From Candidatus Parcubacteria bacterium (lineage in GTDB: Bacteria; Patescibacteriota; Minisyncoccia; Phycocordibacterales; UBA918), in NCBI GenBank assembly GCA_021731405.1, contig JAKFXN010000002.1, forward strand, positions 3,151 to 67,150: a DNA stretch of 64,000 nt, read 5' to 3'. Every line of letters begins with the position of its first letter. The first letter of the stretch is position 1. Both the position numbers and the translations under genes were made by a program. The notes under the pieces are model-generated. The model did no database searches. It worked only from the letters and a program-made list of their open reading frames with translations, and had not been told where the DNA came from. Positions 15,790 to 39,625 of the stretch are shown piece after piece.

Positions 15790-15830
15790 AAAAAAGAAAA
15801 GACCTACAAGCTGGGGAGCCTGTAGGTCTA
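15790..15830 (-). terminator. rho-independent terminator (minus strand)
   Basis: GACCTACA...TGTAGGTC hairpin with the T-run on the minus strand, directly downstream of the 15834..16352 gene. Confidence 0.6.
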
Positions 15831-15833
15831 GGA

Positions 15834-16352: not shown

Positions 16353-16433
16353 GACGAATCAAGTGGGCTTTTCTTACAAAAGAAAACACCACTCTTTTGA
16401 AGGAAGCGGTGTTTTTTGGCCGACCTACCGAGG

Positions 16434-16733: not shown

Positions 16734-16909
16734 GAGAGTTCTCCAGATGTTGAAAAGGGCGGTACCAAACTATATAATAGCACAAATTACTCTAAAAGTC
16801 AATAAAGACCTCAAAATAGGCTTGAGTACACAGTTTGATTTTTGTTTTGGGTGTTTTTGTGATAGCATACGGGCGCAAAAACAACTAAGGTGTTTTTGGG
16901 TACACACTC

Positions 16910-20661: not shown

Positions 20662-20675
20662 AGGTCTAAACCTCT

Positions 20676-21584: not shown

Positions 21585-21589
21585 ACAAT

Positions 21590-21955
21590 ATGAGAGTTTC
21601 AACCATATCAAAAATAATTCTACTCGCTTGCCAACTATTTGTAATCTGGACGCTGGTTTTTAGTGCTGTAGATTGGGCTCAACTCGTTTTAATTAGTCCT
21701 TTCGGTCTATTCGCCTTCTTTGGATCGTTTGTATACCTCATTGCCAAGATAAAAAAGTCAGGAATGAGTATGCCGACACTGTCGCCGACTCAGTTTATAA
21801 AAAATATGGAAGCGCCTGACCAGGTTGAACCTGTTAAAGAGTCTGTAAAAAATGACAGAAGCAAACTAGGTACTCTTTTTGATACTACGGTTTATGTGCT
21901 GTCGCTTTGTTTTGCGTTTAGTCCATTAATACTATTCTTTGTACTTGTTTTGTAG
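21590..21955 (+). CDS. hypothetical 3-TM membrane protein inserted between atpG and atpD
   Basis: 121 aa with hydrophobic helices. Starts 6 nt after atpG. No similarity to known ATP synthase subunits recognised. Confidence 0.5.
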   Translation: MRVSTISKIILLACQLFVIWTLVFSAVDWAQLVLISPFGLFAFFGSFVYLIAKIKKSGMSMPTLSPTQFIKNMEAPDQVEPVKESVKNDRSKLGTLFDTTVYVLSLCFAFSPLILFFVLVL

Positions 21956-23842: not shown

Positions 23843-24724
23843 TTAAAACGTTCCGTATTTTCGGAGCGTTTTTTGTTGTTCGTCATAGAGCGCAGCTCGT
23901 ATGTTTCCAGCTATGAGTGCCTCTTGGTGGTTTTCGGGTGCAGAAATAACCAGTGTGGTAGCCCAAGCGTCGGCTGCTCTGGCAGTTGGTGCTTTCACAA
24001 AAATCCCTAAGCCGTTTAAGCTACTGTCGCCCTGTTTTGTATCAATAATGTGAGTGTAGGTCTTCCCACCATTTTCCCAGCGCCGTTTGTGGGTGCTTGA
24101 AGCAGCAAACCCTTCATAAAAGAGGGTTGTCTCCTCGATGTAAGTACCTGGGGTTGTTGGATGCTCTAAGTAGATGGTGATTGGTTTTCCGTTCTCGGCT
24201 GTAGCGTACATATCGCCGCCACCATTTATCAAAAACTCTTTAAGACCGTGCTTGTCAGTCAGTCTAGCCGCGACGAGGTCGATGAGATAGCCTTTACCAT
24301 ATCCGCCAAGGTCTACTTGACCAAGAGTGAGGAGTATTTTATCTGGGTTGAAGGTCAGTACATGTGTAGGGTCTGGAACGTCGACAGTCATTTCTTTTGG
24401 GGTAAAAGAATAGAGAGCATCGTAGCCTGTTTGCACCATTCGTTCTCCAACCAGAAAGTTGAATACACCGTGTGTTTCATAAAAGAGTCGAAGCCCATAC
24501 TGAAGGAGGTCGATAGTGTCTTGGTCAGGATTAAGGAGATGCCTCGTGTCATTAAGGATACTGATGAGTGACTCAGAACGAAAACGTGAGTACTTCACAT
24601 CAAAAGCATGAATAAAACGACGCAAATCGTCAAAGACAATTTGCGTCGTTTCTTTTGAGGTCTCATCAAAAATCTCTATCCACCAATCTGTGCCAAGACC
24701 GTTAATGGTGGGTAGAGTAGACAT
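23843..24724 (-). CDS. apbE: FAD:protein FMN transferase (flavin transferase)
   Basis: DLGGYGKGYLIDL and C-terminal conserved regions of the ApbE family. 293 aa. Confidence 0.85.
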   Translation of the reverse strand: MSTLPTINGLGTDWWIEIFDETSKETTQIVFDDLRRFIHAFDVKYSRFRSESLISILNDTRHLLNPDQDTIDLLQYGLRLFYETHGVFNFLVGERMVQTGYDALYSFTPKEMTVDVPDPTHVLTFNPDKILLTLGQVDLGGYGKGYLIDLVAARLTDKHGLKEFLINGGGDMYATAENGKPITIYLEHPTTPGTYIEETTLFYEGFAASSTHKRRWENGGKTYTHIIDTKQGDSSLNGLGIFVKAPTARAADAWATTLVISAPENHQEALIAGNIRAALYDEQQKTLRKYGTF

Positions 24725-25302: not shown

Positions 25303-26859
25303 ATGTACGCAGCCTTGATTAAAGTATTTCAAAAAGTAGAACAAAAGCTGGATGCAATTGCCATGTATCGTATTGTTTCTATGGCTCTGCTAGAGATAGC
25401 TTTTTTTGCTATTTTGTTTGGTTTTCTTGGACTGATTCCGTATGGGGGAGTAGAGATACTCGTCTCACTTTCCGCTGCGCTTCTAGCGGCATTTAGCACC
25501 AACTGGCTTTGTAGTAAAATCTGGCACACTGAGGTGAACAATGAGTCCGCTTTTATTACTGCGCTCATTCTATTTTTTCTTATTATTCCCGCACAGATCT
25601 CGGACTTAGAAAGCACGTGGGTGGTTATGCTCGTGACGTTTGTGGCGATTTTGTCTAAGTTTGTTTTTGCGATACGAAAGCAGCACATTGCTAATCCTGC
25701 AGCTTTGGGTGTGGTGTTAGTGGCTCTTGCTTATACGCTCTTTCCAATCCCAGGGTACTTCGAATCGACATGGTGGGTGGGGCGTGTCGAACTCTTTTTG
25801 CCGCTTCTTATTGCAGGACTAGCAGTAGTTACAAAAATTAGAAAATGGACTCCGGTGCTAGCATTTCTTTCCGTTGCGTTTGCTGTGTATCTTTTTGAGG
25901 AGTGGCGCTTTGGAGCAGATGTTGCCTCTAGAGCGTCTACCTTTTGGCTTAGTGGACCAAGTCTCTTTTTGGCGTTTTTCATGTTGACCGAGCCGTTTAC
26001 GCTACCGCCAACAAAAAAACTACAAGCTGGGTACGGAGCCCTTATTGGTTTTATTTCTCAAACCACCATCTTTCTGCCGTTTCTAAAGATGACCCCAGAA
26101 CTCGCTTTGGTACTTGGAAATATTTTATTTTATCCAGCTACACTGAAGCGAAAATTAATTTTGCCGCTAGTTAAGACTACCGAGGTCGCCAAAAATACTT
26201 TTGAGTTTGCTTTTAAAAAGCCTGAAGGACTTCGTTTTGTACCCGGACAGTACTTGGAATGGATGTTGCCACACCATAAGTCAGACAATCGAGGCATTCG
26301 TCGCTACTTTACGATTGCGTCGTCGCCAACTGATTCGCTTATACGTATTGCGGTACGCTTTGCCGATACTGTAAGTTCGTACAAAAACACTCTACGTGCT
26401 ATGCAGGGAGGAGAAATAATAATAGCTAGTCAGTTGGCTGGAGACTTCGTTTTGCCAAAAGATGAAGAGAAGGCGGTAGCTCTTGTGGCTGGAGGTATTG
26501 GCGTCACTCCTTTTTTGAGTCAGATAGGGTATATGAAAGACACAAAGTCGACTCGTAAGACAACACTCTTCTACTGCAACAATACAGTGTCTGAAATTGC
26601 TTATAAAGATTTTCTTGAGGCAGCAGCAAAAGACATCTCTCTTACTACTGTTCACGTGCTCGCCAAAGAACAAGTTGCGGGTTACGAGTCAGGTTTTTTG
26701 ACTCGGGAGATTATTGAAAAATATCTGACGGACTATAAAACAGTAGCGTGGTATCTTTCTGGGCCACCGGGAATGGTCAATGCGTATAAAAAACTTCTAG
26801 TTGAAATGGGTGTGTCAAGAAAAAATATCAAACAAGATTTTTTTCCAGGTCTCGCATAG
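25303..26859 (+). CDS. membrane oxidoreductase: polytopic N-terminal domain (RnfD/NqrB-like, FFMLTEP motif) fused to an FNR-type FAD/NAD(P)-binding reductase domain
   Basis: About 300 aa of TM helices, then RYFTIASSP (RxYS FAD motif), GGIGVTPFLS (NAD motif) and C-terminal LSGPPGMVNA. 518 aa. Confidence 0.8.
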   Translation: MYAALIKVFQKVEQKLDAIAMYRIVSMALLEIAFFAILFGFLGLIPYGGVEILVSLSAALLAAFSTNWLCSKIWHTEVNNESAFITALILFFLIIPAQISDLESTWVVMLVTFVAILSKFVFAIRKQHIANPAALGVVLVALAYTLFPIPGYFESTWWVGRVELFLPLLIAGLAVVTKIRKWTPVLAFLSVAFAVYLFEEWRFGADVASRASTFWLSGPSLFLAFFMLTEPFTLPPTKKLQAGYGALIGFISQTTIFLPFLKMTPELALVLGNILFYPATLKRKLILPLVKTTEVAKNTFEFAFKKPEGLRFVPGQYLEWMLPHHKSDNRGIRRYFTIASSPTDSLIRIAVRFADTVSSYKNTLRAMQGGEIIIASQLAGDFVLPKDEEKAVALVAGGIGVTPFLSQIGYMKDTKSTRKTTLFYCNNTVSEIAYKDFLEAAAKDISLTTVHVLAKEQVAGYESGFLTREIIEKYLTDYKTVAWYLSGPPGMVNAYKKLLVEMGVSRKNIKQDFFPGLA

Positions 26860-27841: not shown

Positions 27842-28702
27842 TTATTTTTGGCAGGTAGGGCAATAGTGTGTACCGCGTCCTGCCACTCTAATCTTCTCTA
27901 TCTCAGTACCACAAACTCCGCAAGGAGTTTTTTGTTTACCAAATACTTGTAGGTAGTCTGTGTAGTTACCATTTTCTCCACCGGTATCTTTAAAATGCTG
28001 GAAGGTGGTGCCGCCAACAGCAATAGATTTTTTAAGAATAGCAGAGCTGGCGATGGCAATTGCACGTGCTTCATTTTTAGTGAGTGTATTTGCATTTCTT
28101 GTCGGTCGAACTTTAGCCATGAACAGAGCTTCATCGACATAGATATTCCCCAGACCAGCCACAAATTTTTGATCTAAGAGGGCAGCTTTTACCGTGGTGT
28201 TTCGTTTTCGTATAAGAGAAACAAAACTATCAATATCAAAATCTTCACTAATGGGTTCTTGTCCATACTTTGCTCTTGCTACAGCAACTTCCTTCGCGGT
28301 GGCGGTTTTGATATACCCAAACAAACGCATGTCATTAAAATATAGTACCGATGAATCAGAGAAGTGAAAAACCGCTCTCGTATGTTTGTGTGGTAGCTTT
28401 AGGTCTGTCTCACTCATGGAGTGTCCGCCTCCAACAATGCCAGAAGCATCTGCATAAAAAAATTGACCAGTCATCTTCAAGTGAACAAGAAGAAACAAAT
28501 CTTTTTCGTGGGTGAAGGAGAAAATTAAAAGCTTACCAATCCTGTCTATGTGACTAATTGATTTTTCGGTCATTTTTTTCGCAAACAGCTTTTCGTGTAC
28601 TACTGTCTTGGGGTGGAGGACAGTAACTTTTTTGATTGATTTACCTCGTACTTTATGGAGTAGCTGGAGGCGAACCGTCTCTACTTCGGGGAGTTCTGGC
28701 AT
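27842..28702 (-). CDS. mutM: formamidopyrimidine-DNA glycosylase
   Basis: N-terminal MPELPEVE catalytic Pro/Glu. H2TH region. C-terminal zinc finger CGVCGTEI...HYCPTCQ. Confidence 0.9.
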   Translation of the reverse strand: MPELPEVETVRLQLLHKVRGKSIKKVTVLHPKTVVHEKLFAKKMTEKSISHIDRIGKLLIFSFTHEKDLFLLVHLKMTGQFFYADASGIVGGGHSMSETDLKLPHKHTRAVFHFSDSSVLYFNDMRLFGYIKTATAKEVAVARAKYGQEPISEDFDIDSFVSLIRKRNTTVKAALLDQKFVAGLGNIYVDEALFMAKVRPTRNANTLTKNEARAIAIASSAILKKSIAVGGTTFQHFKDTGGENGNYTDYLQVFGKQKTPCGVCGTEIEKIRVAGRGTHYCPTCQK

Positions 28703-28890
28703 GGGGCTTATTGTATGTGGTGTCTTGTAAAATGCAACTCCTGTCCACTTTTGTCAAAGTACATAAAACCTTTAAAAATAAGAGTCTAGGGAATAATTCA
28801 CTCTAGTGAACACACTAAATACCAATTTAGTGAAGATTCTTAGGTATACTAATTGCAGATTTAAACCATTTATTATTTTAGTCATATTGT

Positions 28891-31800
28891 ATGCTCAAAG
28901 TGTTTTCTAAGCTCAGCCTAGCTTTATTTTTACTCGTACCAAGCCTTGGGTTAGCTCAGGTCACCAACCTACCTTCTGTGCCACAACCAAGTAGTGGCCA
29001 GATAGTGGGACTCAATCTGCAAAACCCAACAGGGAGTAGTCTCGTCTCACAACCTGTGCGTTTTGGACAAGCTTTTTTAGCTGGAGCACTTTCTGGTACT
29101 TCAGGCATTAATGCAACGGTAAACGGAGTCGCTGCTCCCGCGCAAATTGACGTAAAGACAAAACACGCTGATGGCTCAGTGAAGTTTGGTGTTGTCACCG
29201 TGATGGCACCTGCTGTCTCTGCTAACACCGTAAACCCAACTCTTCTCTCAGCTACAACAAAAAGTAGTTCAGTCATTTCACTTTCGACTATGCCCAACTA
29301 CTCGCTTGTGGTAGACATGACTATGTCAGATGGAAAGAAATACAGCTTCAATGCCGCCACACTTTTGGCTGAAGCGATCTCTGCTGGGAAGGTTTCATAC
29401 TGGAGACAAGGGTCAGTAGTAACAGAGGGAAGAATTGAAGTACCAGTAGTATCTTCAATGCGTCTCGTGTTTGATATTTCTAAGTATCAAGATGGTACAT
29501 ACTCTACCGACGTTCATTTCAACAATGATGCGGCGATGACTTCTTCAGGTAATACGCTTACGTACTCAGCGACGATTACTCAAAATGGGAAAGTGGCCTA
29601 CCAAGTAAGCAACCTTAAACATCATCAATATCAAACCTGGCACACAGTAATCTACAGTGGAGCAACCCCAGCTATCAATCCACAACTCGATATTCCGTAT
29701 CTAGTAAAAACAAAGACAATTATTAATTTTGACACTACCCATGGGGTACTCACTGATGAGATTTCAAGTCTCACGTACAAACCCCTAGATGCAACTGGCA
29801 TTACTGAGTATATGCCTATGGCTGGAGCAAGAGGTGATATTGGGCCGATTACCAATGTAAATGCTGATTGGCTCCTCACGCAAGATGCTAAGGCTGCAAA
29901 ATCTGCTCTAGCACAAGCTGATGGTGCGGGTAGTGTGCCATGGCACTATTATGACCCGTCGAGTAAAGACTATATTTCACTCGATAAGTACCCTGACCTC
30001 TGGACGGATGAACGAGGAGATCCAACCCTAACTCAGTTTTCGAAAAGTACCGATTGGCAAGTAGACTCAGCTCATCAACCAAACCTTTCTTTCATCCCAT
30101 ATCTATTAACTGGTAGTAGATACCACCTTGATCAGATAAACGCACAGGCAACTCACGCTATCTTTATTGTGTGGCCAGCCCCGAGAGATGGTGGTACTGG
30201 ACTCGTTATTAATGATAACGACCAAATTCGTAGTCAGGCTTGGAATTTTAGACAAGTAGCTGAAGCGGCTTGGGCAAATCCAGACGGAACAGCAACCAAA
30301 GCCTACTGGGAAAGACTTGTAGACAACAACCTACAGAGTTTACTCAACAGAATACCGCAAATGACAAAAGCTCAAGGTGAACCTCATGGCTATATAGCTG
30401 GATACGCACCATGGCAAGATGACTATTTTCTTTCTTCTATGGCAGCTGTGGCTGGGCGGGGAAACGCCAAAGCGAAAAAAATTATTGAATGGATGTCTAA
30501 CTTTATGGTGGGAAGATTTGTGCACCTACCAAATCCCGAAGTCGGTATCACTGCTGAATTAACAAACTGGAAATCTGACGACTCTGGTTACATCACAACC
30601 TGGAAAGGTATTTCCGATGCTAACCCATCTTCTAATTCTGACGGCGGTACGTATGGACTACTTGGCTTGGGTTCAATTGCCAACACGTACAATATCACCG
30701 GTTCTTCAACAGTGTTACAAGTCTATAACAGGATAAAAGCTTTAAATTTCCCGACTACCAGTATTGATGATAGACGAACAGAAACACAGTTCAGTATTGT
30801 CCCAGTGGGTACTGGCGCAGGTGTTATTACACCCTCTCCAACTCCAACACCTACTCCGACTCCGATTCCAGTAGTAGCTCCAACCGCTACTCTGACCGCT
30901 ATCCCAACTTCAATCACCAGTGGTGGCAGCACTGTGGTCTCTTGGTCTTCAACTAATGCCACTACCTGTACTGGCACCAATTTCACCACTGGTGGAGCAA
31001 CGAGCGGTGCAGTCTCAGTTGCACTGGTGAACAACGCAACTTTCACGCTGTCATGTACTGGTGCTGGTGGTACGGTTACTAAGTCAGTAACTGTTAGTGT
31101 GGCCGCTACACCTTCAACTAAGTTCACACTTACAGACAGGGTAGCTGCCTCCGACACTGTTAATGTCCGTGCAACCGCTAACACTGCAGGAACTCTTAGA
31201 GGCACACAAGTGGTAGGTGCGCTAGGTAGTGTTGCTGGAGGACCAACTTCAGCCAATGGATATAGTTGGTGGAATATTAATTTCGACAACGGTGCTGACG
31301 GTTGGGCAGTGGAGGACTACCTTGTGAAATCGACAGTACCTGTTCCGACTCCAGCCCCTACACCAACTCCAACTCCAACACCCGTACCTGTTCCAACTCC
31401 AACGCCAGTAGTAGCCCCAACCCTCACCCTCACTGCCAGCAAAGCAGCAGTTGTGTCTCGAGAACGGGTAACACTCAATTGGTCAGCTCAAAATGCTACC
31501 AGCTGTGCTTCAGGCAATTTCCTTGTTTCAAGTACCACAGGTTCAAAGGTGGTCCGTCCAACAAAAAGTACTACATACACCATGACCTGTACTGGAAAGA
31601 GTGGTTCTGTGACACAGAGCGTGGGGGTAACAGTTGGTACTACCCCAACACCAACTCCGACACCTACTCCAACTCCAGTACCAACCCCTACCCCAACACC
31701 AACGCCGGTGCCTGCCCCTGTTCCAACTCCAACCCCGTCAGCTGGTAGCATGCCAACCGACTACTTCCTCTACCTACCATTTGATGGTTCGATTGAAGAG

Positions 31801-32661
31801 AAGGGTAGTGCAAAGAAAACAACCGCCGGAGGAAACGTTACTTACCAAACAGGCAAGTACGGACAAGCCGCCTACTTTGACGGTAGTTCACATGTGAGTG
31901 TGGAGATGGGAACTCTCAAGCCTACGTATACTGCTTCGTTCTGGATGAAGCCCAATCGACCAGCTTCCAATCGAGAATTTTTCCCAGCGATCTATGGTGG
32001 TAATGAAACTGGCTGCGGTTCTGCTCCAAGTGTTTCATATGATGGCTTGAAGCAGATTGTGGTACATACAACAGGTTGTGACGGTAGCGCAGAGTCACTC
32101 ATTGGAGGTTTTGGTCCAACCACATGGCATCATGTGACAGTGGTCGTTACTGACTCTTCTCGCCGTGTGTATATAAATGGCAGTCTTGAAGATGAAAGAG
32201 AAAACCTAGCAAACTCAGAAACTTCAGCCTCAGCTTGTTTCTTTATTGGCGGGTACCAGACTGAACCATGTAAACCAACGGACGGAATTTACTTCAAAGG
32301 CCTCATCGACGACGTTCGTGTATACAAACGCGCCCTCTCTGCTAGTGAAATCCAAACCCTCGTAGCTAGTACTCCAACCAAGTCGACGGTTGCTACAATT
32401 CCTGCGACATCAAATGGTTTTGTCCGAGCAGTGAAGGTTAGTACCATTCCATTTGTGCAAAACCTCGCCGTTGCCAGTACTGGAGAAGCGGTCACACAGC
32501 TCCAAAAAGTGTTGACTGCACTTGGCTATTTCAAAGAAGAAGCCACGGGCTATTTTGGACCACTCACCGCAAGCGCTGTCTCAGCCTTCCAGCGTGACAA
32601 TGGTCTTGAGCCAGTTGGAATTGTTGGTTCTAAGACTAGAGCGGTGCTTAATTTACGGTAA
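28891..32661 (+). CDS. giant secreted multidomain surface protein, paralog 1 (1256 aa)
   Basis: Signal peptide MLKVFSKLSLALFLLVPSLGLAQV. A roughly 650-aa N-terminal domain of unknown function. PT-repeat linkers. An Ig-like module (TLTAIPTSITSGGSTVVSWSSTNATTCTG). An SH3b-like module (VNVRATANTAGTL...GYSWWNI...GWAVEDYL). A LamG/concanavalin-like lectin domain (YFLYLPFDGSIEEKGS...). A C-terminal PG_binding_1-like domain (GEAVTQLQKVLTALGYF...FQRDNGLEPVGIVG). A terminator follows. Confidence 0.85.
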   Translation: MLKVFSKLSLALFLLVPSLGLAQVTNLPSVPQPSSGQIVGLNLQNPTGSSLVSQPVRFGQAFLAGALSGTSGINATVNGVAAPAQIDVKTKHADGSVKFGVVTVMAPAVSANTVNPTLLSATTKSSSVISLSTMPNYSLVVDMTMSDGKKYSFNAATLLAEAISAGKVSYWRQGSVVTEGRIEVPVVSSMRLVFDISKYQDGTYSTDVHFNNDAAMTSSGNTLTYSATITQNGKVAYQVSNLKHHQYQTWHTVIYSGATPAINPQLDIPYLVKTKTIINFDTTHGVLTDEISSLTYKPLDATGITEYMPMAGARGDIGPITNVNADWLLTQDAKAAKSALAQADGAGSVPWHYYDPSSKDYISLDKYPDLWTDERGDPTLTQFSKSTDWQVDSAHQPNLSFIPYLLTGSRYHLDQINAQATHAIFIVWPAPRDGGTGLVINDNDQIRSQAWNFRQVAEAAWANPDGTATKAYWERLVDNNLQSLLNRIPQMTKAQGEPHGYIAGYAPWQDDYFLSSMAAVAGRGNAKAKKIIEWMSNFMVGRFVHLPNPEVGITAELTNWKSDDSGYITTWKGISDANPSSNSDGGTYGLLGLGSIANTYNITGSSTVLQVYNRIKALNFPTTSIDDRRTETQFSIVPVGTGAGVITPSPTPTPTPTPIPVVAPTATLTAIPTSITSGGSTVVSWSSTNATTCTGTNFTTGGATSGAVSVALVNNATFTLSCTGAGGTVTKSVTVSVAATPSTKFTLTDRVAASDTVNVRATANTAGTLRGTQVVGALGSVAGGPTSANGYSWWNINFDNGADGWAVEDYLVKSTVPVPTPAPTPTPTPTPVPVPTPTPVVAPTLTLTASKAAVVSRERVTLNWSAQNATSCASGNFLVSSTTGSKVVRPTKSTTYTMTCTGKSGSVTQSVGVTVGTTPTPTPTPTPTPVPTPTPTPTPVPAPVPTPTPSAGSMPTDYFLYLPFDGSIEEKGSAKKTTAGGNVTYQTGKYGQAAYFDGSSHVSVEMGTLKPTYTASFWMKPNRPASNREFFPAIYGGNETGCGSAPSVSYDGLKQIVVHTTGCDGSAESLIGGFGPTTWHHVTVVVTDSSRRVYINGSLEDERENLANSETSASACFFIGGYQTEPCKPTDGIYFKGLIDDVRVYKRALSASEIQTLVASTPTKSTVATIPATSNGFVRAVKVSTIPFVQNLAVASTGEAVTQLQKVLTALGYFKEEATGYFGPLTASAVSAFQRDNGLEPVGIVGSKTRAVLNLR

Positions 32662-32681
32662 CTTGAAGGGATAAAATATAG

Positions 32682-32714
32682 AAAAGCCTGCGTTTGCAGG
32701 CTTTTCTATTTTAA
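32682..32714 (+). terminator. rho-independent terminator
   Basis: AGCCTGC-gttt-GCAGGCT hairpin followed by a T-rich run. Confidence 0.65.
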
Positions 32715-32815
32715 GTATTAAACCACAGGATGAGGTTTACAAAAGGGGATACTGGGGTTTGTCTCTAGTATAATTACATACAGATTAAAGCAAATTTATT
32801 ATTTAACTACCCGTC

Positions 32816-35800
32816 ATGTTCAAATTATTTTCTAAGCTCAGTCTAGCCCTCTTTTTACTCGTACCAAGTCTTGGGCTAGCTCAGGTCACGTATCTACCAA
32901 CCATTCCTCAGGCGACCGGCAGTCAAATTGTTGGACTTAATCTGCAAAACCCGACGGGGAGCAGTCTCGTCTCGCAACCTGTGCGTTTTGGACAAACCTT
33001 TTTATCAGGCGCACTTTCTGGTACTTCTGGTATCAGTGCAACAGTGAATGGTGCAGGTGCCCCAGCGCAAATAGATGTTAAGACAAAACACAGTGATGGT
33101 TCAGTGAAGTTTGGTGTCGTGACAGTTATGGCACCAGCACTTTCTGCTAACAGTGCCAACCCAACTCTTCTCTCACCTGCAACAAAAAGTAGTTCTGTCA
33201 TTTCGCTCTCGACAATGCCTAACTACTCCCTCGTTGTTGACATGACTATGTCTGATGGAAAGAAGTATAGCTTCAACGCTGGCACACTTTTAGCTGAGGC
33301 ACTCTCCGCTGGCAAAGTTTCATACTGGAGACAGGGACCGGTTGTGACCGAAGGAAGAATTGAAGTACCAGTAGCATCTTCAATGCGACTGGTGTTTGAT
33401 ATTTCTAAGTATCAAGACGGTTCATACTCAACTGATGTGCACTTCAACAACGATGCAGCGATGACAGCTTCAGGAGATACTCTCACGTATTCAGCTACTA
33501 TTACTCAAAACGGAAAGGTAGCGTATCAGGTGAGCAACCTAGCACATCATCAGTATCAAACCTGGCACACGGTTGTCTATAGCGCAGTAACTCCAGCCAT
33601 CAATCCGCAACTTGATATTCCGTATTTATTGAAAACGAAAGCTGTGCTTAACTTTAATACCACTCACGGGGTCGCCACAAATGCAATATCAGCCGTTACC
33701 TATACTCCGCTCGGTGAAGCGGGAATTGAAACCTACATGCCAATGACAGGTGGTCGAGGTGATATTGGTCCAATCACAAACGTAAATGCTGATTGGCTCC
33801 TCACGCAAGATGTTAAGGCTGCAAAATCAGCTCTCGCACAAGCAGATGCTGCCGGCAGTATCCCTTGGCATTACTACGACCCAACAACAAGTGATTATAT
33901 TTCTCTAGATAAACACCCAAAGCTTTGGGCTGATAGTCGAGGGAATCCAAAACTTACTCAGTTTACAAAAGATTCTGTTTGGAGTATTGATACATCTCAC
34001 CAACCAAACCTTTCGTTCATCCCATACATCTTAACTGGAAACCGTTACCATCTAGATCAAATTAATGCTCAAGCAACCTTCTCAATATTTAATTCTTGGC
34101 CGTATTACCGAAAGGATGGACTCGGATTGATGCTTAATGGGGGCGACCAGACTAGAGGGCAGGCCTGGAGTTTCCGTCAAGTTATTGATGCTGTTTGGGC
34201 AAACCCTGATGACACCACAACAAAGTCTTACTGGAGAAAAGTTGAAGATAACAATCTCCAGTATCTTTTGGATGCACGTTCTGCACGTGAGACTGAGCAG
34301 GGTGAGGCGTATGGATATGCTGCAGGAGCAAACTACGAAACATACATAGCTCCATGGCAGCAAGAGTTTTACTTTAGTGCAGTTGCACTTTCGGCACAGC
34401 GAGGAAATGCCAAGGCAAAAGAAGTAGCAGCGTGGATGTCTAACTTTATTGTCGATCGCTTCAATAAATTGCGTGAACCTCTCTCATCAGTTAACTACCG
34501 ATTCAACCATCGTAATGCAGCCGGTGCGATTGTAAAAACATGGTCTGGACTTTCTGATCAAAATCCTGCTACTCCGGGTAAGGGTTATTATTCACCACTC
34601 GGCCTTGCTTCACTTGCCAATGCATACAATGTCTCAGGATTGCAAAAAGATCTCGACACCTATAATAAGATTAAAGCACTGAACCCTCCTTCAACCAGTA
34701 TTGACGATATGCGTGTGGAGACACAATTCAGTATCGTCCCAGTGGGTTCTGGTGCCGGGGTTATCACACCTGCTCCAACTCCAACACCAACACCAACACC
34801 AACACCAACACCAACACCAACACCTACTCCGACTCCAGTAGTAGCTCCAACCGCTACTCTGACCGCTATTCCAACTTCAATCACCAGTGGTGGCAGTACC
34901 GTAGTGACGTGGTCTTCAACGAACGCTACTACTTGTACTGGGACAAACTTCAGTACTGGTGGAGCTGCTAGTGGAGCAGTGTCTGTAGCGCTTGTAAATA
35001 ATGCCACCTTCACGCTGTCATGTACTGGTGCTGGTGGTTCTGTGACTAAGACTGCAGCAACTACTGTTTCAACGGTTACCTCAACAAAGTTTAAGTCTGG
35101 TGATCGAGTTTCAACAACTGAAAATCTTAACGTACGAACAACTGCTAACACAACAGGAACTTTACTCGGCACACAGTCATTAAGTGCGCTTGGGTTTGTT
35201 GCTGGCGGACCAACAAATGCGAGCGGTTTTAACTGGTGGAACATTAACTTCGATAGTGGTGTTGATGGCTGGGCAGTGGAAGACTATCTTATGAAGTCAA
35301 CGATAGCTGTTCCAACACCTACGCCAACTCCAACACCTACGCCAACTCCAACCCCAGGAACAAAAAGTGTCTGTGTTGATACAATTTGTACATACACAAC
35401 TATCGCCAGTGCATTTGCAGCCGCAAAGAATGGTTCGACTATCACTATTTCAGGTGAATGGACTGCTGGCGGGGCTTTGACAGCAAGTAACGTAACCATC
35501 AAAGGTGATGGTACTGCACACCTCAAGGGTGGTGCTGTACAAGGAAAAGCGATTATTGTGACAAGTGGACAGAGCACCACAATTGAAAATATCGAGTGTT
35601 CAAACGCAACAGTACCAGACGAAAACGGCGCTTGTGTGCGACATCAAGGAAGTGGTCTGACTCTCCGTAATGTAAACTTCCACGATAATCAAAACGGTCT
35701 TCTCGCTAGCCCAGACAGCGGCTCAATCCTAATTGAAGGAAGTACCTTTGAGCGAAATGGATTTAATGGTGGTGGAGGATATGCACACGGAATTTATGTT

Positions 35801-37618
35801 AATGGTGGAAATACTGAACTCACTATTCGAAATTCGAAGTTCTTACGTAGTAAGCTTGGCGGGCACGAGATCAAGAGCCGAGCAGCTAAGACCACAATCG
35901 AAAATACGGTCATTGCTACCATTGACGGAGTTGATAGTCGTAATATCGACATTCCAAATGGGGGACAGGTGATCATTAAAAACAGCGTCATTGAACAAGG
36001 ACCAAGCAGTGAAAATTCAAACTCAATTGGTATTGGGCATGAAGGACTTACACATGCGGTTAATTCAGTTTTACTTGAAAATAACTATATTATTCTCGAA
36101 CGAAGTGGCACAAATGTGATGCTTCAGACACCAGGTATGCCTACTCCAGTAGTGAAGGGTAACACCATTATTGGCGGTACAAATCCTGGCGGTACCAATA
36201 CGTGGTATCAAAGTCGTTCAGCTGCTGGTATTGCTGCCTACCCATACTTGCCAAGTGCAGGTAGTGTACCTATGCCGACTTCCACCCCGACTCCCGTACC
36301 CGAGCCTACCCCAACCCCAACACCTACTCCAACACCTACTCCAACTCCAGTAGTGGCCCCAACTCTCACCCTCACTGCCAGCAAAGCCGCCGTAGCAGCT
36401 CGAGAACGGGTAACTCTTAATTGGTCAGCGCAAAACGCTACCAGCTGTACTTCAGGCAATTTCCTTGTTTCAAGTACCACAGGTTCAAAGGTGGTTCGTC
36501 CAACAAAAAGTACAACGTACACCATGACCTGTACTGGAAAGGGTGGTTCAGTGACACAGAGTGTTGCGGTCACTGTTGGCTCTACGCCAGCACCTACCCC
36601 TGTGCCCGAACCTACCCCAACTCCAGTACCAGAACCAACTCCAACCCCGACACCTACACCTACACCTACACCTACACCTACACCTACCCCAACCCCAGTT
36701 CCTTCAGCTGGTACTATGCCAACCGACTACTTCCTCTACTTGCCATTTGACGGTTCAATTGAAGATAAGGGCTCTGCAAAGAAAACAACTGCCGGTGGAA
36801 GTATTAGTTACCAAACAGGCAAGTACGGACAAGCGGCGTACTTTGATGGCAGTTCACACGTGAGTGTGGAGATGGGAACACTGAAGCCTTCGTACACTGC
36901 TTCGTTTTGGATGAGGCCAGACCAGATTGGTAGTGGAGCATATGGCTCAGCTGTGCATGGCGGTAGATCTGGAGCTTGTGTTGCAACTCCAAACGTAACG
37001 TACACTGGAGCGAACCAGATAGCGGTACATACAACAGGTTGTGATGAATCGACCACTCTCCTTGATGGCTATGCACCAAATACATGGGTGCATGTGGCGG
37101 TGGTTGTTGGTTCTTCAGACCGCAAAATATACATCAATGGAAATCTCGTTGATGACAGACAAAATCTAAGTAACCGCGGCACAGTTAGTTGGGCATGCTT
37201 CTTCATTGGAGCTCTTCAGGTGGGTGAGTGTAAGGCACCTGACAGTCACTTCAAAGGCCTCATCGACGACGTCCGTGTATACAAACGAGTTCTCTCTGCT
37301 AGTGAAATACAAACCCTAGTAGCCAGTGCTCCAACCAAGTCAACGGTCGCTACTATCCCTGCGACAGCAAACAGTTTTGTCCGCGCCGTGAAGATAAACA
37401 CCATCCCGTTTGTCCAAGACCTGGCCGTTATGAGTACCGGAGAAGCGGTCATACAGCTCCAAAAGGTGCTGACCGCACTTGGCTACTTCAAAGAAGAAGC
37501 CACCGGCTACTTTGGACCACTCACTGCCAGTGCTGTCTCAGCCTTCCAGCGTGACAACGGTCTTGAACCAGTTGGAAATGTTGGCCCGAAGACGAGAAGT
37601 GTCCTTAATCTACGGTAA
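32816..37618 (+). CDS. giant secreted multidomain surface protein, paralog 2 (1600 aa), with additional right-handed beta-helix module
   Basis: Nucleotide sequence is near-identical to paralog 1 over the signal peptide and N-terminal domain. Same PT linkers, Ig-like, SH3b, LamG and PG-binding modules. Adds a segment of about 300 aa (TISGEWTAGG...NVNFHDNQNGL...GGGGYAHGIYVNGGNTELTIRNSKF) with pectate-lyase-like beta-helix repeats. Confidence 0.85.
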   Translation: MFKLFSKLSLALFLLVPSLGLAQVTYLPTIPQATGSQIVGLNLQNPTGSSLVSQPVRFGQTFLSGALSGTSGISATVNGAGAPAQIDVKTKHSDGSVKFGVVTVMAPALSANSANPTLLSPATKSSSVISLSTMPNYSLVVDMTMSDGKKYSFNAGTLLAEALSAGKVSYWRQGPVVTEGRIEVPVASSMRLVFDISKYQDGSYSTDVHFNNDAAMTASGDTLTYSATITQNGKVAYQVSNLAHHQYQTWHTVVYSAVTPAINPQLDIPYLLKTKAVLNFNTTHGVATNAISAVTYTPLGEAGIETYMPMTGGRGDIGPITNVNADWLLTQDVKAAKSALAQADAAGSIPWHYYDPTTSDYISLDKHPKLWADSRGNPKLTQFTKDSVWSIDTSHQPNLSFIPYILTGNRYHLDQINAQATFSIFNSWPYYRKDGLGLMLNGGDQTRGQAWSFRQVIDAVWANPDDTTTKSYWRKVEDNNLQYLLDARSARETEQGEAYGYAAGANYETYIAPWQQEFYFSAVALSAQRGNAKAKEVAAWMSNFIVDRFNKLREPLSSVNYRFNHRNAAGAIVKTWSGLSDQNPATPGKGYYSPLGLASLANAYNVSGLQKDLDTYNKIKALNPPSTSIDDMRVETQFSIVPVGSGAGVITPAPTPTPTPTPTPTPTPTPTPTPVVAPTATLTAIPTSITSGGSTVVTWSSTNATTCTGTNFSTGGAASGAVSVALVNNATFTLSCTGAGGSVTKTAATTVSTVTSTKFKSGDRVSTTENLNVRTTANTTGTLLGTQSLSALGFVAGGPTNASGFNWWNINFDSGVDGWAVEDYLMKSTIAVPTPTPTPTPTPTPTPGTKSVCVDTICTYTTIASAFAAAKNGSTITISGEWTAGGALTASNVTIKGDGTAHLKGGAVQGKAIIVTSGQSTTIENIECSNATVPDENGACVRHQGSGLTLRNVNFHDNQNGLLASPDSGSILIEGSTFERNGFNGGGGYAHGIYVNGGNTELTIRNSKFLRSKLGGHEIKSRAAKTTIENTVIATIDGVDSRNIDIPNGGQVIIKNSVIEQGPSSENSNSIGIGHEGLTHAVNSVLLENNYIILERSGTNVMLQTPGMPTPVVKGNTIIGGTNPGGTNTWYQSRSAAGIAAYPYLPSAGSVPMPTSTPTPVPEPTPTPTPTPTPTPTPVVAPTLTLTASKAAVAARERVTLNWSAQNATSCTSGNFLVSSTTGSKVVRPTKSTTYTMTCTGKGGSVTQSVAVTVGSTPAPTPVPEPTPTPVPEPTPTPTPTPTPTPTPTPTPTPVPSAGTMPTDYFLYLPFDGSIEDKGSAKKTTAGGSISYQTGKYGQAAYFDGSSHVSVEMGTLKPSYTASFWMRPDQIGSGAYGSAVHGGRSGACVATPNVTYTGANQIAVHTTGCDESTTLLDGYAPNTWVHVAVVVGSSDRKIYINGNLVDDRQNLSNRGTVSWACFFIGALQVGECKAPDSHFKGLIDDVRVYKRVLSASEIQTLVASAPTKSTVATIPATANSFVRAVKINTIPFVQDLAVMSTGEAVIQLQKVLTALGYFKEEATGYFGPLTASAVSAFQRDNGLEPVGNVGPKTRSVLNLR
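34781..34825 (+). repeat. perfect hexanucleotide tandem repeat (CCAACA)x7 encoding a PT linker
   Basis: Read directly from the sequence. Lies in frame within paralog 2. Confidence 0.9.
36649..36688 (+). repeat. perfect hexanucleotide tandem repeat (CACCTA)x6 encoding a PT linker
   Basis: Read directly from the sequence. Lies in frame within paralog 2. Confidence 0.9.
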
Positions 37619-37627
37619 CCTAACCCA

Positions 37628-37660
37628 AAAAACAGCCTGCGTACGCAGGCTGTTTTTTAT
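37628..37660 (+). terminator. rho-independent terminator
   Basis: CAGCCTGCG-ta-CGCAGGCTG palindrome followed by TTTTTT. Confidence 0.7.
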
Positions 37661-37687
37661 TGTTTTTCGTGTATAGTACGGGACTAT

Positions 37688-37924
37688 ATGGCACACCCGT
37701 TTGAAAAGATGTTAGACGTGGCAATTAAAAAAAGTACCCCATTTGAAAATGAGGTGCTTAAGGTAGCTGAGAATCTTAAGGAAAAAGGGTATAGTCCCGA
37801 AGAGATTTTTACCGTCCTTACCAAGCTCCATAAATCACTTATAGACAAAGACGAAGCAGAGATAGTAGGAGAGGCAGTAGAGGAGTTTAGTCGGTATGTT
37901 GAAGATAAGGATGAGGACGATTAA
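37688..37924 (+). CDS. small acidic hypothetical protein
   Basis: 78-aa ORF ending in an acidic tail, followed by a bidirectional terminator. Confidence 0.4.
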   Translation: MAHPFEKMLDVAIKKSTPFENEVLKVAENLKEKGYSPEEIFTVLTKLHKSLIDKDEAEIVGEAVEEFSRYVEDKDEDD

Positions 37925-37927
37925 AAG

Positions 37928-37968
37928 AAAAGAGCCCCTCACTGAAAGTGAGGGGCTCTTGTTTTTTG
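37928..37968. terminator. bidirectional terminator
   Basis: AGAGCCCCTCACT-gaa-AGTGAGGGGCTCT hairpin with T-runs on both strands. Sits between convergent genes. Confidence 0.7.
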
Positions 37969-37975
37969 GTTGGCG

Positions 37976-38749
37976 CTAGTTGTAGCCGCCGTCCGCTTTG
38001 AGATTCACGCCGTGGATGGCAGAGCTAGCTCGGCTGGTCAGCCAGACGATTACTCTTGCCACTTCACGAACATCGAGGTCTCGCTTGCGCCAGATGCGTT
38101 GTACCTCAGCTTCGTAGCCTGGCACGTCATCGTTCATTGGTGAGTTCACCCAACCTGGGGCTACTCCATTGATGCGGAGGCCTCGCTCAGCGTATTCCTT
38201 GTCCAGACATTCGATAGTTGGTATGAGTGCCGCCTTGCTTTGGTCGTACGGCACCGAGAATGGGGCCCAGGAACCGAGGCTGAGACCGTTGGTCGAAGTA
38301 ATGAGGACGCTTGCCAGCTCAACACCTTTCTTGGCTGCGCGAGCCATAACGTCCCGTGTATTGAGAGTAACAGCTACAACGTTTACTTTGTATACATTGT
38401 AGAAGTCCTCTGGAGTCAGGCTTTCAAGCGGTGGATTTGGGGAAATACCCGAGGCATTCACATACGCATTTATTTCATAGCCTGTGGCCACTACCGCTGC
38501 TTCGAGGAAGTCACAAAAAGCAACTGAGTCCAAGAGGTCGACTTTGGCCGCATAGAACTTGATTCCTTTCGCTTCGACCAACTTCTGCAGTTCCAAAGCC
38601 TTGGCTTCGTTACTCCAGTAGGTGATGCTGATGGCTTTGATGCCATCTTGTCCGGCATACTCTAGCACGGTCGCTGCACCAATTGCACCGGTACCCCCGA
38701 CGACCAAAGCGTGGCCATCAATGAAGTTTTGAAATTTTGCTGTATCCAT
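37976..38749 (-). CDS. short-chain dehydrogenase/reductase (SDR) family oxidoreductase
   Basis: N-terminal VVGGTGAIGAA Rossmann motif and catalytic YDQSKAAL (YxxxK). Confidence 0.85.
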   Translation of the reverse strand: MDTAKFQNFIDGHALVVGGTGAIGAATVLEYAGQDGIKAISITYWSNEAKALELQKLVEAKGIKFYAAKVDLLDSVAFCDFLEAAVVATGYEINAYVNASGISPNPPLESLTPEDFYNVYKVNVVAVTLNTRDVMARAAKKGVELASVLITSTNGLSLGSWAPFSVPYDQSKAALIPTIECLDKEYAERGLRINGVAPGWVNSPMNDDVPGYEAEVQRIWRKRDLDVREVARVIVWLTSRASSAIHGVNLKADGGYN

Positions 38750-39007: not shown

Positions 39008-39172
39008 GGTCTGCTCCTTTTGATGTTAAAGAACGGCTAAGCCGAAGCTTAGATACTTTGAAATAAAACACTAGAAAGGGAACGTAGTCAATGGCGTATC
39101 AAGCGGGGCAGTAGACAGGGTATTATTTTGTGGCATAATCAATCCAGTTTTGTTTTTCTACAGGAGATTATT

Positions 39173-39625
39173 ATGACCAATGATCAAGCTCTCGGCCTTA
39201 TCGTTCTCGGCTTAATTCTGTTGATACTGTTCAACTGGAAAAAGTTTGTGCAGCTGGTGGTTAGCCTTGCCGTCCTTTTCATCCGTGTTATGACGGTCGT
39301 TGGTGGAATTGTCATGTTTTTCGGTATAAAGAGTGTGGGAGAAGGTATTGGAATATTGATTCTGATGGTTGTCGTTTTCTGGTTCGCAGATTGGTTAGAC
39401 AACTCATTCGGACTTGAAGACAAAGCATCTACCTATACTCCTCCGGCCAAAGGAAGTAGTTTTCCGGGATCGTACGATGAACCCAAAAAACTGTGTCCAT
39501 ATTGCAGCGGCAGTAAACGAATTGGGTGTGATCTGAGCCATGTTCAAAGAACTCCAGATAATCCATTCCCAAACTGTTGGAAGTGCAACAACACAGGGTT
39601 GATGAGATGTCCGTACTGCCCGTAA
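39173..39625 (+). CDS. membrane protein with C-terminal DnaJ-CR-like CxxC zinc-ribbon repeats
   Basis: AGGAG Shine-Dalgarno 8 nt upstream of the ATG at 39173. Three TM helices. C-terminal CPYCSGSKRIGC...CWKCNNTGLMRCPYCP. Confidence 0.5.
   Translation: MTNDQALGLIVLGLILLILFNWKKFVQLVVSLAVLFIRVMTVVGGIVMFFGIKSVGEGIGILILMVVVFWFADWLDNSFGLEDKASTYTPPAKGSSFPGSYDEPKKLCPYCSGSKRIGCDLSHVQRTPDNPFPNCWKCNNTGLMRCPYCP

What the first reader, a model, noticed from the sequence alone, without database searches (positions are those of the whole stretch)
28891..37618. Tandem pair of giant secreted PG-binding multidomain proteins, probably a diverging host/cell-wall interaction arsenal
Two adjacent genes (1256 and 1600 aa) have near-identical signal peptides and N-terminal domains of about 650 aa. 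Their upstream leaders and downstream terminators are also similar, so this looks like a recent tandem duplication.

Each stacks, in the same order, an unknown N-terminal domain, a PT linker, an Ig-like module, an SH3b module, a further PT linker, a LamG/concanavalin-like lectin domain and a C-terminal PG_binding_1-type peptidoglycan-binding domain.

The N-terminal domain is Trp/Tyr-rich, with features such as WHYYDP, HQPNLSFIPY and GQAWNFRQV. It does not match any family I can name from sequence, and it could be a glycan-degrading catalytic domain.

In a reduced genome whose other cell-wall genes are ordinary, these are the obvious candidates for surface adhesins or enzymes that engage the organism's own or a host's peptidoglycan or polysaccharide.
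Basis: partly seen in the sequence, partly recalled or inferred. Interest (0 to 1): 0.7.

Follow-up and report, generated by a model that had tools for sequence, protein, structure and literature searches.

The report
Wall-anchored modular glycan depolymerases in CPR bacterium
Two neighbouring giant genes in an ultrasmall (Patescibacteria) bacterium most likely encode secreted, cell-wall-tethered enzymes that cut bacterial surface polysaccharides, and a sister strain has swapped the enzyme "head", as phages do with tail spikes, which makes them candidate host-specificity tools.

Summary
The duplication is old, not recent: dS is about 1.1 and omega about 0.16.

The organism is a Paceibacteria-type CPR bacterium. 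The gene pair fills a strain-variable site between fpg and a small conserved gene. A sister strain keeps P2's C-terminal modules (80-97% identity) but carries a different head (15-50%), with the breakpoint at a PT linker.

Best reading: surface-displayed, head-swappable polysaccharide depolymerases. The substrate and the chemistry are unproven.

The parts
28751..28779 (+). Promoter-like site upstream of P1. This is a consensus match only.
   Evidence: The number of such sites in the region is not above chance.
28891..32661 (+). Paralog 1 (P1), 1256 aa. Module order: signal peptide, PL26-like head, PT linker, Ig-like, SH3b-like, PT linker, Ig-like, PT linker, LamG, PG_binding_1.
28891..28956 (+). 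P1 Sec-type signal peptide (MLKVFSKLSLALFLLVPSLGLA|QV). There is no lipobox Cys.
   Evidence: Direct reading. It is 20/22 identical to P2's.
28957..30825 (+). P1 head domain (aa 23-645). It comprises a RIFT barrel (about aa 37-123), a beta-sandwich (about aa 139-267), a conserved linker motif MPxxGxRGDIGP (aa ~308-319), and an (alpha/alpha)6-type toroid (about aa 322-630).
30829..30873 (+). P1 PT linker 1 (aa 647-661).
30874..31110 (+). P1 Ig-like module 1.
   Evidence: Internal repeat with module 2, 36-45% identity. Weak fn3_3 hit, E 0.022.
31111..31332 (+). P1 SH3b-like module.
   Evidence: SH3_3, E 0.0038, 17.8 bits, below the Pfam cutoff.
31333..31410 (+). P1 PT linker 2. This is the position where P2 carries its beta-helix insert.
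31411..31638 (+).
   Evidence: Big_12, E 0.12.
31639..31740 (+). P1 PT linker 3, a (CCAACA)n-type repeat.
31756..32370 (+). P1 LamG / concanavalin-like domain.
   Evidence: Pfam Laminin_G_3, 6e-22. The core, aa 1021-1140, is a divergence hot spot.
32479..32649 (+). P1 PG_binding_1 domain (aa 1197-1253).
   Evidence: Pfam, 5.4e-17, 62 bits against a cutoff of 23.
32678..32709 (.). Terminator-like hairpin after P1 (GCCTGCGTTTGCAGGC core, flanked by A and T runs).
32773..32802 (+). Promoter-like site upstream of P2. This is a consensus match only.
32816..37618 (+). Paralog 2 (P2), 1600 aa. It has the same modules as P1 plus a beta-helix module.
32882..34762 (+). P2 head domain (aa 23-649), 71% identical to P1's.
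34766..34840 (+). P2 PT linker 1, (CCAACA)8. This is the breakpoint of the head swap seen in sister strain L051.
34841..35311 (+). P2 Ig-like module 1 plus SH3b-like module.
35348..36265 (+). P2-only right-handed parallel beta-helix module (aa 845-1150), flanked by PT linkers at 35312-35365 and 36269-36352.
36353..36583 (+). P2 Ig-like module 2.
   Evidence: 93% identical to P1's module 2.
36722..37327 (+). P2 LamG domain.
   Evidence: Pfam Laminin_G_3, 1.1e-24.
37436..37606 (+). P2 PG_binding_1 domain (aa 1541-1597).
   Evidence: Pfam, 1.7e-16.
37627..37658 (+). Terminator-like hairpin after P2.
27842..28702 (-). fpg, the conserved left border of the strain-variable site.
37688..37924 (+). 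78-aa conserved small gene, the right border of the variable site. In strains L053 and L054 it directly follows fpg.

Best explanation
P1 and P2 are old paralogs. They encode Sec-secreted, modular polysaccharide depolymerases that a Paceibacteria-type (CPR/Patescibacteria) bacterium displays on its own wall.

Steps shown or predicted computationally:
1. The N-terminal head folds as a RIFT barrel, a beta-sandwich and an (alpha/alpha)6 toroid. It is a distant structural relative of the PL26 lyase PcRGLX.
2. The head is one member of a very large, unannotated family.
3. P2 carries a second module, a beta-helix of the PL31/PL6/PL9 and phage-depolymerase type.
4. Both proteins end in LamG and PG_binding_1 domains.
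5. The gene pair occupies a strain-variable site.
6. A sister strain carries a different head on P2's own C-terminal modules, with the junction at a PT-linker repeat.

Steps inferred:
1. The head cleaves a bacterial surface or exopolysaccharide, probably an acidic one, probably by beta-elimination.
2. The C-terminal PG_binding_1 domain tethers the protein non-covalently to the producer's peptidoglycan. The PT linkers and Ig-like modules act as a stalk. The SH3b-like and LamG modules add glycan binding.
3. The enzymes clear or grip the capsule or biofilm matrix of a host or neighbouring cell, giving access for attachment and/or releasing sugars.
4. Head and LamG diversification retunes target specificity, as with phage tail-spike depolymerases.
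For: Anatomy.

Head fold:
- AF2 model, pLDDT 94.2.
- Foldseek gives PcRGLX probability 1.0.
- Independently, 27 of 43 family members hit Pfam PcRGLX_1st, best 1.8e-9.

Catalytic plausibility: invariant polar residues across 43 diverse members are Q, D, D, N, Y, R, D, H, R, W, R.

Family size: 5,594 clusters at E<=1e-3.

Substrate clue 1, from Proteobacteria. Homologs sit inside Wzx/Wzy and exosortase-type EPS loci. Their neighbours are enriched for Acyl_transf_3, GT4/GT2, Wzy_C+DUF5935 and Asn_synthase. Some are fused to RTX, CBM60 or Calx-beta.

Substrate clue 2, from phages. 87 IMG/VR contigs encode relatives. Neighbours include head, portal, baseplate and tail-fiber genes. In L113 the gene follows a gpJ-like central tail fiber.

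Second module.

Organism: atpD relatives are named Paceibacterota, Parcubacteria and Kaiserbacteria.

Accessory status and head swap.

Selection: omega 0.16, with divergence hot spots in the toroid C-half and LamG.

Literature: Paceibacteria that parasitise methanogens highly express extracellular proteins with PG-binding and Ig-like domains, proposed to act in host attachment (PMC10936435).
Against: - There is no biochemical evidence for any family member.
- Similarity to PL26 is at fold level only: 10% identity, no sequence or profile hit to any PDB chain. The window protein itself does not reach PF19501.
- I could not map the invariant residues onto the model or onto PcRGLX's active site, because no coordinates were accessible.
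- Lyase versus hydrolase is undecided. GH88 and GH105 hydrolases score nearly as well on the toroid.
- The EPS-locus association is partial. P0072, for example, lies among housekeeping genes.
- Some IMG/VR 'viral' contigs may be prophage borders or misclassified.
- Context of the beta-helix relatives is uninformative.
- The host of this organism is unknown.
- Whether PG_binding_1 binds the producer's own wall or a target wall is untested.
Confidence: 0.6

Rival explanations
1. The proteins are non-catalytic adhesins. The toroid and beta-helix are degenerate, lectin-like binding modules, and the proteins only glue the cell to a partner surface.
For: - They contain several binding-type modules: LamG, Ig-like and SH3b-like.
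- The literature proposes PG-binding-domain proteins of Paceibacteria as attachment factors.
Against: - Charged and aromatic residues are strictly invariant across 43 members at 25-50% identity.
- The beta-helix family has a conserved K/R/H/D/E set, including an HEIKSR motif. That is typical of active enzymes.
- Homologs sit in EPS-processing and phage depolymerase-type contexts.
Confidence: 0.13
2. The enzymes scavenge nutrients from environmental (plant or algal) acidic polysaccharides such as rhamnogalacturonan-I, as PL26 enzymes do. They have no role in cell-cell interaction.
For: - The closest solved structure is an RG-I exo-lyase.
- The beta-helix resembles pectate and alginate lyases.
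- The genome also encodes a GH15-like glycosidase.
Against: - Identity to PL26 is only 10%.
- Relatives lie in bacterial EPS-biosynthesis loci and phage structural modules, not in pectin-utilisation loci.
- Wall anchoring and strain-level head swapping fit a contact-dependent target better.
Confidence: 0.15
3. The enzymes remodel the producer's own wall. They trim its own secondary cell-wall polymer or capsule during growth and division, as the glycanases encoded in EPS operons do.
For: - A PG_binding_1 anchor is typical of autolysins (NCBIfam partial hits to SleB and a PG hydrolase come from that domain only).
- Proteobacterial homologs inside EPS-biosynthesis loci probably process the producer's own polymer.
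Against: - The genes are absent from strain L054, and L053 has an unrelated RCC1 protein at the site, in otherwise syntenic genomes.
- The sister strain carries a head only 15-50% identical.
- No polysaccharide-biosynthesis genes flank them in the window.
Confidence: 0.08
4. The genes are a remnant of a prophage or other mobile element that carries phage depolymerase genes.
For: - The family occurs in many viral contigs.
- The site is an indel hot spot.
- GC skew is locally inverted.
Against: - No phage, integrase or transposase genes adjoin the pair. The flanks are fpg, UDG, a small conserved gene and an SDR.
- Each gene has a Sec signal peptide and a PG-binding anchor, not a virion adaptor.
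- dS of about 1.1 between the copies, with omega 0.16, indicates long cellular maintenance.
Confidence: 0.04

Closest known systems
PL26 exo-rhamnogalacturonan lyase PcRGLX (PDB 5XQ3/5XQG/5XQO) and the YetA-like superfamily
   Same: - It has the same three-part architecture in the same order: N-terminal RIFT barrel, beta-sandwich, (alpha/alpha)6 toroid.
- Many family members match Pfam PcRGLX_1st.
   Different: - Identity is only about 10%, with no sequence or profile match to PL26 chains.
- The head is much shorter: about 620 aa against about 880.
- It is embedded in a multi-module, wall-anchored protein.
- Genomic contexts are bacterial EPS loci and phages, not pectin utilisation.
- Catalytic residues were not compared.
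Phage tail-spike or tail-fiber capsule/EPS depolymerases (for example Klebsiella phage KP32gp38, the CBA120 TSPs, K5 lyase)
   Same: - Specificity modules are exchanged on a conserved scaffold.
- Relatives of the head domain lie in phage structural and tail modules.
   Different: - The proteins are cellular, Sec-secreted and PG-anchored, not virion-borne.
- There is no evidence of trimerisation or of a virion adaptor domain.
- The head is a toroid, not a beta-helix.
EPS-locus glycanases and lyases that process a bacterium's own matrix (for example V. cholerae RbmB; from my own knowledge also AlgL, PslG, and the Rhizobium RTX-secreted glycanases ExsH and PlyA/PlyB)
   Same: - Proteobacterial members of the head family sit inside EPS loci or carry RTX secretion repeats.
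   Different: - The window's genes are not in an EPS locus.
- The producer has a reduced genome.
- The folds and families of AlgL, PslG and ExsH are different.
PG-binding-domain extracellular proteins highly expressed by archaea-parasitising Ca. Paceibacteria (PMC10936435)
   Same: - The same bacterial class.
- Extracellular proteins that combine PG-binding and Ig-like domains and are proposed to mediate host interaction.
   Different: - That paper does not report a PL26-like or beta-helix catalytic module.
- Sequence relatedness to P1 and P2 was not tested here.
PL31 alginate lyase (PDB 6KFN) and PL6/PL9 beta-helix lyases
   Same: - Its profile weakly matches PL6 AlyF, E 2e-4.
   Different: - The sequence match covers only the N-terminal third.
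- Its own family consists of unannotated 'right-handed parallel beta-helix repeat' proteins.
- Catalytic residues were not compared.

Membership tests
CAZy PL26 (PcRGLX/YetA-like) | Three-domain fold: RIFT barrel, then beta-sandwich, then (alpha/alpha)6 toroid. | tested here: met
   [not shown]
CAZy PL26 (PcRGLX/YetA-like) | Significant sequence similarity to characterised PL26 members. CAZy families are defined by sequence. | tested here: not met
   phmmer and the family profile against all PDB chain sequences give no PL26 hit at E<=10. The window protein itself has no PF19501 hit at E<=1. Identity in the structural alignment is 10%. dbCAN/CAZy HMMs were not available.
CAZy PL26 (PcRGLX/YetA-like) | Conservation of PcRGLX catalytic and substrate-binding residues. 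| not testable with these tools
   The fold searches returned no residue-level alignment, and no model coordinates were accessible. The PcRGLX paper is not in the library.
CAZy PL26 (PcRGLX/YetA-like) | Beta-eliminative exo-cleavage of rhamnogalacturonan-I. | not testable with these tools
   This needs enzyme assays.
Pfam PG_binding_1 (PF01471) | Score above the gathering threshold over the full-length model. | tested here: met
   62.2 and 60.6 bits against a cutoff of 23, model positions 1-57 of 57.
Pfam Laminin_G_3 (PF13385), LamG/ConA-like | Score above the gathering threshold over the full-length model. | tested here: met
   78.9 and 87.7 bits against a cutoff of 27.6, model positions 2-151 of 151.
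Bacterial SH3 (SH3_3/SH3b) | Pfam match above threshold. | tested here: inconclusive
   E 0.0038, 17.8 bits against a cutoff of 27, although model positions 1-53 of 54 are covered. No structure was predicted for this module.
Bacterial Ig-like domains | Pfam match above threshold or a predicted fold. | tested here: inconclusive
   Only Big_12 at E 0.12 and fn3_3 at E 0.022. The modules are clear internal repeats, 36-45% identical.
Right-handed parallel beta-helix polysaccharide lyases/depolymerases (PL6/PL9/PL31-like) | Beta-helix fold with closest similarity to glycan-cleaving members. | tested here: met
   [not shown]
Right-handed parallel beta-helix polysaccharide lyases/depolymerases (PL6/PL9/PL31-like) | Sequence membership of one specific PL family, and its catalytic Lys/Arg plus Ca2+ site. 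| tested here: inconclusive
   There is only a partial profile hit to PL6 AlyF (E 2e-4, N-terminal 100 residues) and to CE8 (9e-4). Invariant K64, R95, H144, K173, R175, D193 and E229 exist but were not mapped onto known sites.
Recent tandem duplication | Low synonymous divergence between the copies. | tested here: not met
   NG86 dS = 1.11 overall, 0.37-3.1 by segment; dN = 0.18.
Core/housekeeping gene of the lineage | Present at the syntenic site in close relatives. | tested here: not met
   L054 has no gene there. L053 has an unrelated RCC1+PGB protein nearby. L051 has a head-swapped version.

The most novel reading that the evidence does not exclude
CPR/Patescibacteria episymbionts carry phage-like, wall-anchored depolymerases whose catalytic heads are exchanged by recombination at PT-linker microsatellites. 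These heads determine which host capsule or EPS the cell can breach, so they would be host-range determinants. The head would also define a new, very large polysaccharide-lyase (or hydrolase) family, shared by CPR bacteria, phages and proteobacterial EPS loci.
Probability: 0.3. Interest if true: 0.8.

Novelty: new variant of a known kind. Interest (0 to 1): 0.6.

Why it matters
How ultrasmall CPR bacteria recognise and gain access to their hosts is largely unknown. The abstract of PMC12206443 says so. Type IV pili are the main candidates studied so far.

This locus offers a concrete, testable alternative or complement: surface-tethered glycan-cutting enzymes whose specificity module differs between near-identical strains.

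Separately, the head domain represents about 5,600 sequence clusters with no Pfam, NCBIfam or PHROG model apart from a partial RIFT-barrel match. It recurs in EPS loci and phage structural modules. Characterising one member would annotate thousands of proteins, and it might add a CAZy family useful for degrading capsules and biofilms.

Tried and rejected
- Sequence searches of the head against Pfam, NCBIfam, PHROGs and PDB sequences gave nothing usable.
- Literature searches for PcRGLX/YetA and PL26 returned nothing on catalytic residues. No paper links CPR bacteria to this domain.
- Exact-sequence look-ups of P1, of atpD (P0203) and of the 78-aa gene found no indexed source contig. I therefore could not see whether sister strain L051 also has a second paralog. 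Its locus is cut at 21.4 kb.
- The window shares no synteny with the other CPR loci that carry the head (L001, L002, L008).
- I tested whether P2's beta-helix is related to the beta-helix protein in the Massilia EPS locus. It is not detectably related.
- Contexts of stand-alone relatives of the beta-helix were uninformative: a GGDEF neighbour in Vibrio and a GT41 in Telmatospirillum.
- The RCC1 protein at the same site in L053 shares only the PG_binding_1 domain type, at 33-35% identity, so there is no conserved anchor cassette.
- No further copies of any module occur elsewhere in the window.
- The first locus scan with the 43-sequence alignment failed because it had no sufficiently conserved stretch. 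I repeated it with 13 sequences.
- I considered a diversity-generating retroelement as the cause of the LamG hot spot but did not test it. No reverse transcriptase turned up among the ten flanking genes scanned with Pfam, but most of the window's genes were not annotated.
Full report
OBSERVATION

ORF listing confirms two adjacent + strand genes at exactly the stated coordinates: P1 at 28891-32661 (1256 aa) and P2 at 32816-37618 (1600 aa). BLASTP aligns them in two blocks. One is 72% identical over P1 1-818 / P2 1-832. The other is 76% identical over P1 845-1256 / P2 1184-1600.

Pfam places Laminin_G_3 and PG_binding_1 at both C-termini, well above threshold. It also finds a Beta_helix hit in P2 only. 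A global alignment shows a P2-only block at aa 839-1163. Scanned alone, that block hits Beta_helix at 5.8e-13. The SH3b and Ig-like assignments are sub-threshold in Pfam.

Every module boundary is a PT linker encoded by (CCAACA)n-type repeats.

Upstream DNA similarity is confined to about 45 nt before the ATG. Both genes end with similar GCCTGCGTnnGCAGGC hairpins.

AGE OF THE DUPLICATION

Nei-Gojobori estimates on the codon alignment give dN 0.18, dS 1.11 and omega 0.16. Synonymous sites are near saturation, so the duplication is old and both copies are held by purifying selection. "Recent duplication" is not supported.

Divergence is uneven:
- The RIFT barrel and beta-sandwich are 88% identical, with omega 0.05.
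- The C-terminal half of the toroid (aa 441-645) is 53% identical. One 60-aa window is 36% identical with omega 0.54.
- The LamG core (aa 1021-1140) is 43-58% identical.

THE N-TERMINAL DOMAIN

Residues 23-645 hit nothing in Pfam, NCBIfam or PDB sequences.

A database search found 82 homologs at 46% identity or less. Most are "hypothetical" proteins from Acetobacteraceae, Reyranella, Rhodospirillales and other Proteobacteria. Several carry Pfam PF19501, the RIFT barrel of the PL26 lyase PcRGLX/YetA. In a 43-sequence alignment (A1), 27 members hit PF19501 at E<=1, best 1.8e-9.

AlphaFold2 on that alignment gave pLDDT 94.2 and pTM 0.95. The model has beta domains over residues 15-245 and about twelve helices over residues 300-608.

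Fold searches agree:
- Foldseek also ranks PcRGLX first, with probability 1.0.

Two independent lines therefore point to distant homology with the PL26/YetA superfamily: the fold across all three subdomains, and the Pfam RIFT-barrel hits in relatives. Sequence-level membership of PL26 is not met.

The invariant residues are dominated by Asp, Arg, His, Tyr, Asn, Gln and Trp. I could not map them in 3D because no coordinates were accessible.

An exhaustive profile search finds 5,594 clusters (50% identity level) at E<=1e-3 and 2,656 at E<=1e-30. Many are proteins of 1,000-2,250 aa. This is a large family with no curated model.

WHAT THE FAMILY DOES ELSEWHERE

In Proteobacteria, members are fused to RTX repeats, CBM60, Calx-beta, DUF4214 or DUF4082.

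Neighbourhoods of individual homologs:
- P0053 lies between a GT4 and a methyltransferase/flippase. The locus also has a priming transferase, a Wzy_C+DUF5935 ligase-like protein and a sensor kinase / sigma54 regulator / TPR trio.
- The Massilia protein P0079 sits in an exosortase-type EPS locus. That locus holds a second family copy and a separate beta-helix protein.
- P0010 lies next to Wzy_C+DUF5935 and two Acyl_transf_3 genes.
- P0034 lies about 3.5 kb from a block of two GT4 genes, two Acetyltransf_6 genes and a DUF218 gene.
- P0072 is among housekeeping genes.

A bulk scan of 136 neighbour ORFs from 31 loci puts Acyl_transf_3 (9), GT4 (5), GT2 (4), Wzy_C/DUF5935 (3), Asn_synthase (3) and Beta_helix (3) among the commonest families.

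In viruses:
- One GenBank phage, EBPR siphovirus 1, encodes a member (gp39) next to a gene annotated as a glycosyl hydrolase.
- 87 IMG/VR contigs encode relatives.
- Their neighbours include major head, terminase, portal, baseplate wedge, tail fiber, DNA-ejection and endolysin proteins.
- In L113 the gene follows a gpJ-like central tail fiber and a virion structural protein. In L084 it lies between head-closure and tail genes.

Together these contexts point to bacterial surface or exopolysaccharide as the substrate class. This is an inference.

THE P2 INSERT

The insert has 218 homologs, mostly stand-alone "right-handed parallel beta-helix" proteins of 300-400 aa. The family profile weakly matches the PL6 alginate lyase AlyF (2e-4) and CE8 pectinesterases (9e-4).

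P2 therefore carries two putative glycan-cleaving modules.

ORGANISM AND LOCUS DYNAMICS

The window's ATP synthase beta subunit is 100% identical to a protein on an 86.9-kb NCBI contig. Its 89-99% identical relatives are named Candidatus Paceibacterota, Parcubacteria, Kaiserbacteria or Patescibacteria. Related contigs of 0.75-0.95 Mb fit a reduced genome.

The nearest head homologs in GTDB genomes are also CPR: L001 at 55%, Adlerbacteria L002 at 45% and Paceibacteria L008 at 42%. The first two end in PG_binding_1. They lie in unrelated genomic contexts. In a rough neighbour-joining tree these CPR sequences group with a few alphaproteobacterial ones.

Three close relatives are syntenic from the atp operon through fpg:
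- L054 (atpD 96%) goes from fpg straight to the small gene that follows P2 in the window (37688-37924), and then to pilus genes.
- L053 has the same small gene after fpg, followed by an unrelated RCC1-repeat + PG_binding_1 protein.
- L051 (atpD 98%) has a single 1719-aa gene after fpg.

The L051 protein is 80-97% identical to P2 from aa ~671 through the beta-helix, and 65-88% identical through Ig2 and LamG. It is only 15-50% identical over aa 1-670. The switch falls in the PT linker after the head, at the (CCAACA)8 repeat at 34775-34824. It also has one extra Ig-like module.

So the pair occupies a strain-variable site, and modules are exchanged at the linker repeats.

MECHANISM PROPOSED

- Shown or predicted computationally: the module anatomy, the folds, the family distribution, the selection pattern and the locus variability.
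- Inferred: Sec export and signal-peptide cleavage after GLA (direct reading of the sequence).
- Inferred: tethering of the C-terminus to the producer's peptidoglycan by PG_binding_1. That CPR cells have peptidoglycan and no outer membrane is from my own knowledge.
- Inferred: a stalk made of PT linkers and Ig-like modules, with auxiliary binding by the SH3b-like and LamG modules.
- Inferred: cleavage of a host or matrix polysaccharide by the toroid head and, in P2, by the beta-helix.

Published work on Paceibacteria that parasitise methanogens reports highly expressed extracellular proteins with PG-binding and Ig-like domains, proposed to act in attachment (PMC10936435).

The rivals cannot be excluded without experiments. 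They are pure adhesins, scavenging of environmental pectin-like glycans, remodelling of the producer's own envelope, and a prophage remnant. Evidence for and against each is given in the structured fields.

VERDICT

"Recent duplication" is refuted.

The finding is a new variant of a known kind: modular, surface-anchored glycan depolymerases. Three aspects make it interesting:
- a very large uncharacterised PL26-like family
- its sharing among CPR bacteria, phages and EPS loci
- strain-level head swapping in an episymbiont lineage whose host-recognition mechanisms are unknown

Interest is 0.6.

Noticed in passing
window 28001-38000: GC skew is negative only across the P1/P2 block and positive over the rest of the window. 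The likely cause is C-rich ACN/CCN codons in the PT linkers and the Thr/Pro/Ser-rich modules, but a foreign origin was not excluded.
   Followed up: no
window 25303-26859 (+), with 23843-24724 (-): A 518-aa protein fuses an NQR2/RnfD/RnfE-like membrane domain to an NAD_binding_1 domain. It sits beside ApbE and the F-type ATPase operon. The arrangement is conserved in three related Paceibacteria strains. This is an unusual redox module for a reduced CPR genome.
   Followed up: no
window 43869-45764 (-): A 631-aa ORF has no Pfam hit at 1e-5. It lies next to def and fmt, where priA is often found, and it has CxxC...CxxC zinc-ribbon-like motifs. It may be a highly divergent PriA-like protein.
   Followed up: no
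window 39128-39625 (+): A small membrane protein has a Cys-rich C-terminus that matches GRXCR1-2_C.
   Followed up: no
L053 18295-20277: In a related strain, a 660-aa RCC1-repeat (beta-propeller) protein ending in PG_binding_1 lies near the equivalent site. It shares only the anchor domain type with P1 and P2, at 33-35% identity. PG_binding_1 may be a general C-terminal anchor for variable surface proteins in this lineage.
   Followed up: partly
L050 (Massilia sp.) 10001-12328, 14593-16770, 20446-21876: An exosortase-type EPS locus carries two copies of the head family plus a separate Pel9A/NosD-like beta-helix protein. These are the same two module classes that are fused in P2, although that beta-helix is not detectably related to P2's.
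   Followed up: partly
P0323 (2023 aa), P0324, P0325: Some giant proteins contain two or three matched stretches of the head domain within one polypeptide.
   Followed up: no
L055 (EBPR siphovirus 1, JF412302.1) 8914-13344: Phage gp39 is a member of the head family (28% identity, E 3e-25; PcRGLX_1st at 5.6e-5). It lies directly upstream of gp40, annotated as a glycosyl hydrolase, between the terminase and head genes.
   Followed up: partly
window 9920-11896 (+): This 658-aa ORF is syntenic with a gene that carries Glyco_hydro_15 in the sister strains, so the organism has at least one other glycan-active enzyme.
   Followed up: no
L136 (Vibrio alginolyticus) 7712-10164: A stand-alone relative of P2's beta-helix lies next to a GGDEF diguanylate cyclase. 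This is a weak hint of a link to the biofilm matrix.
   Followed up: no
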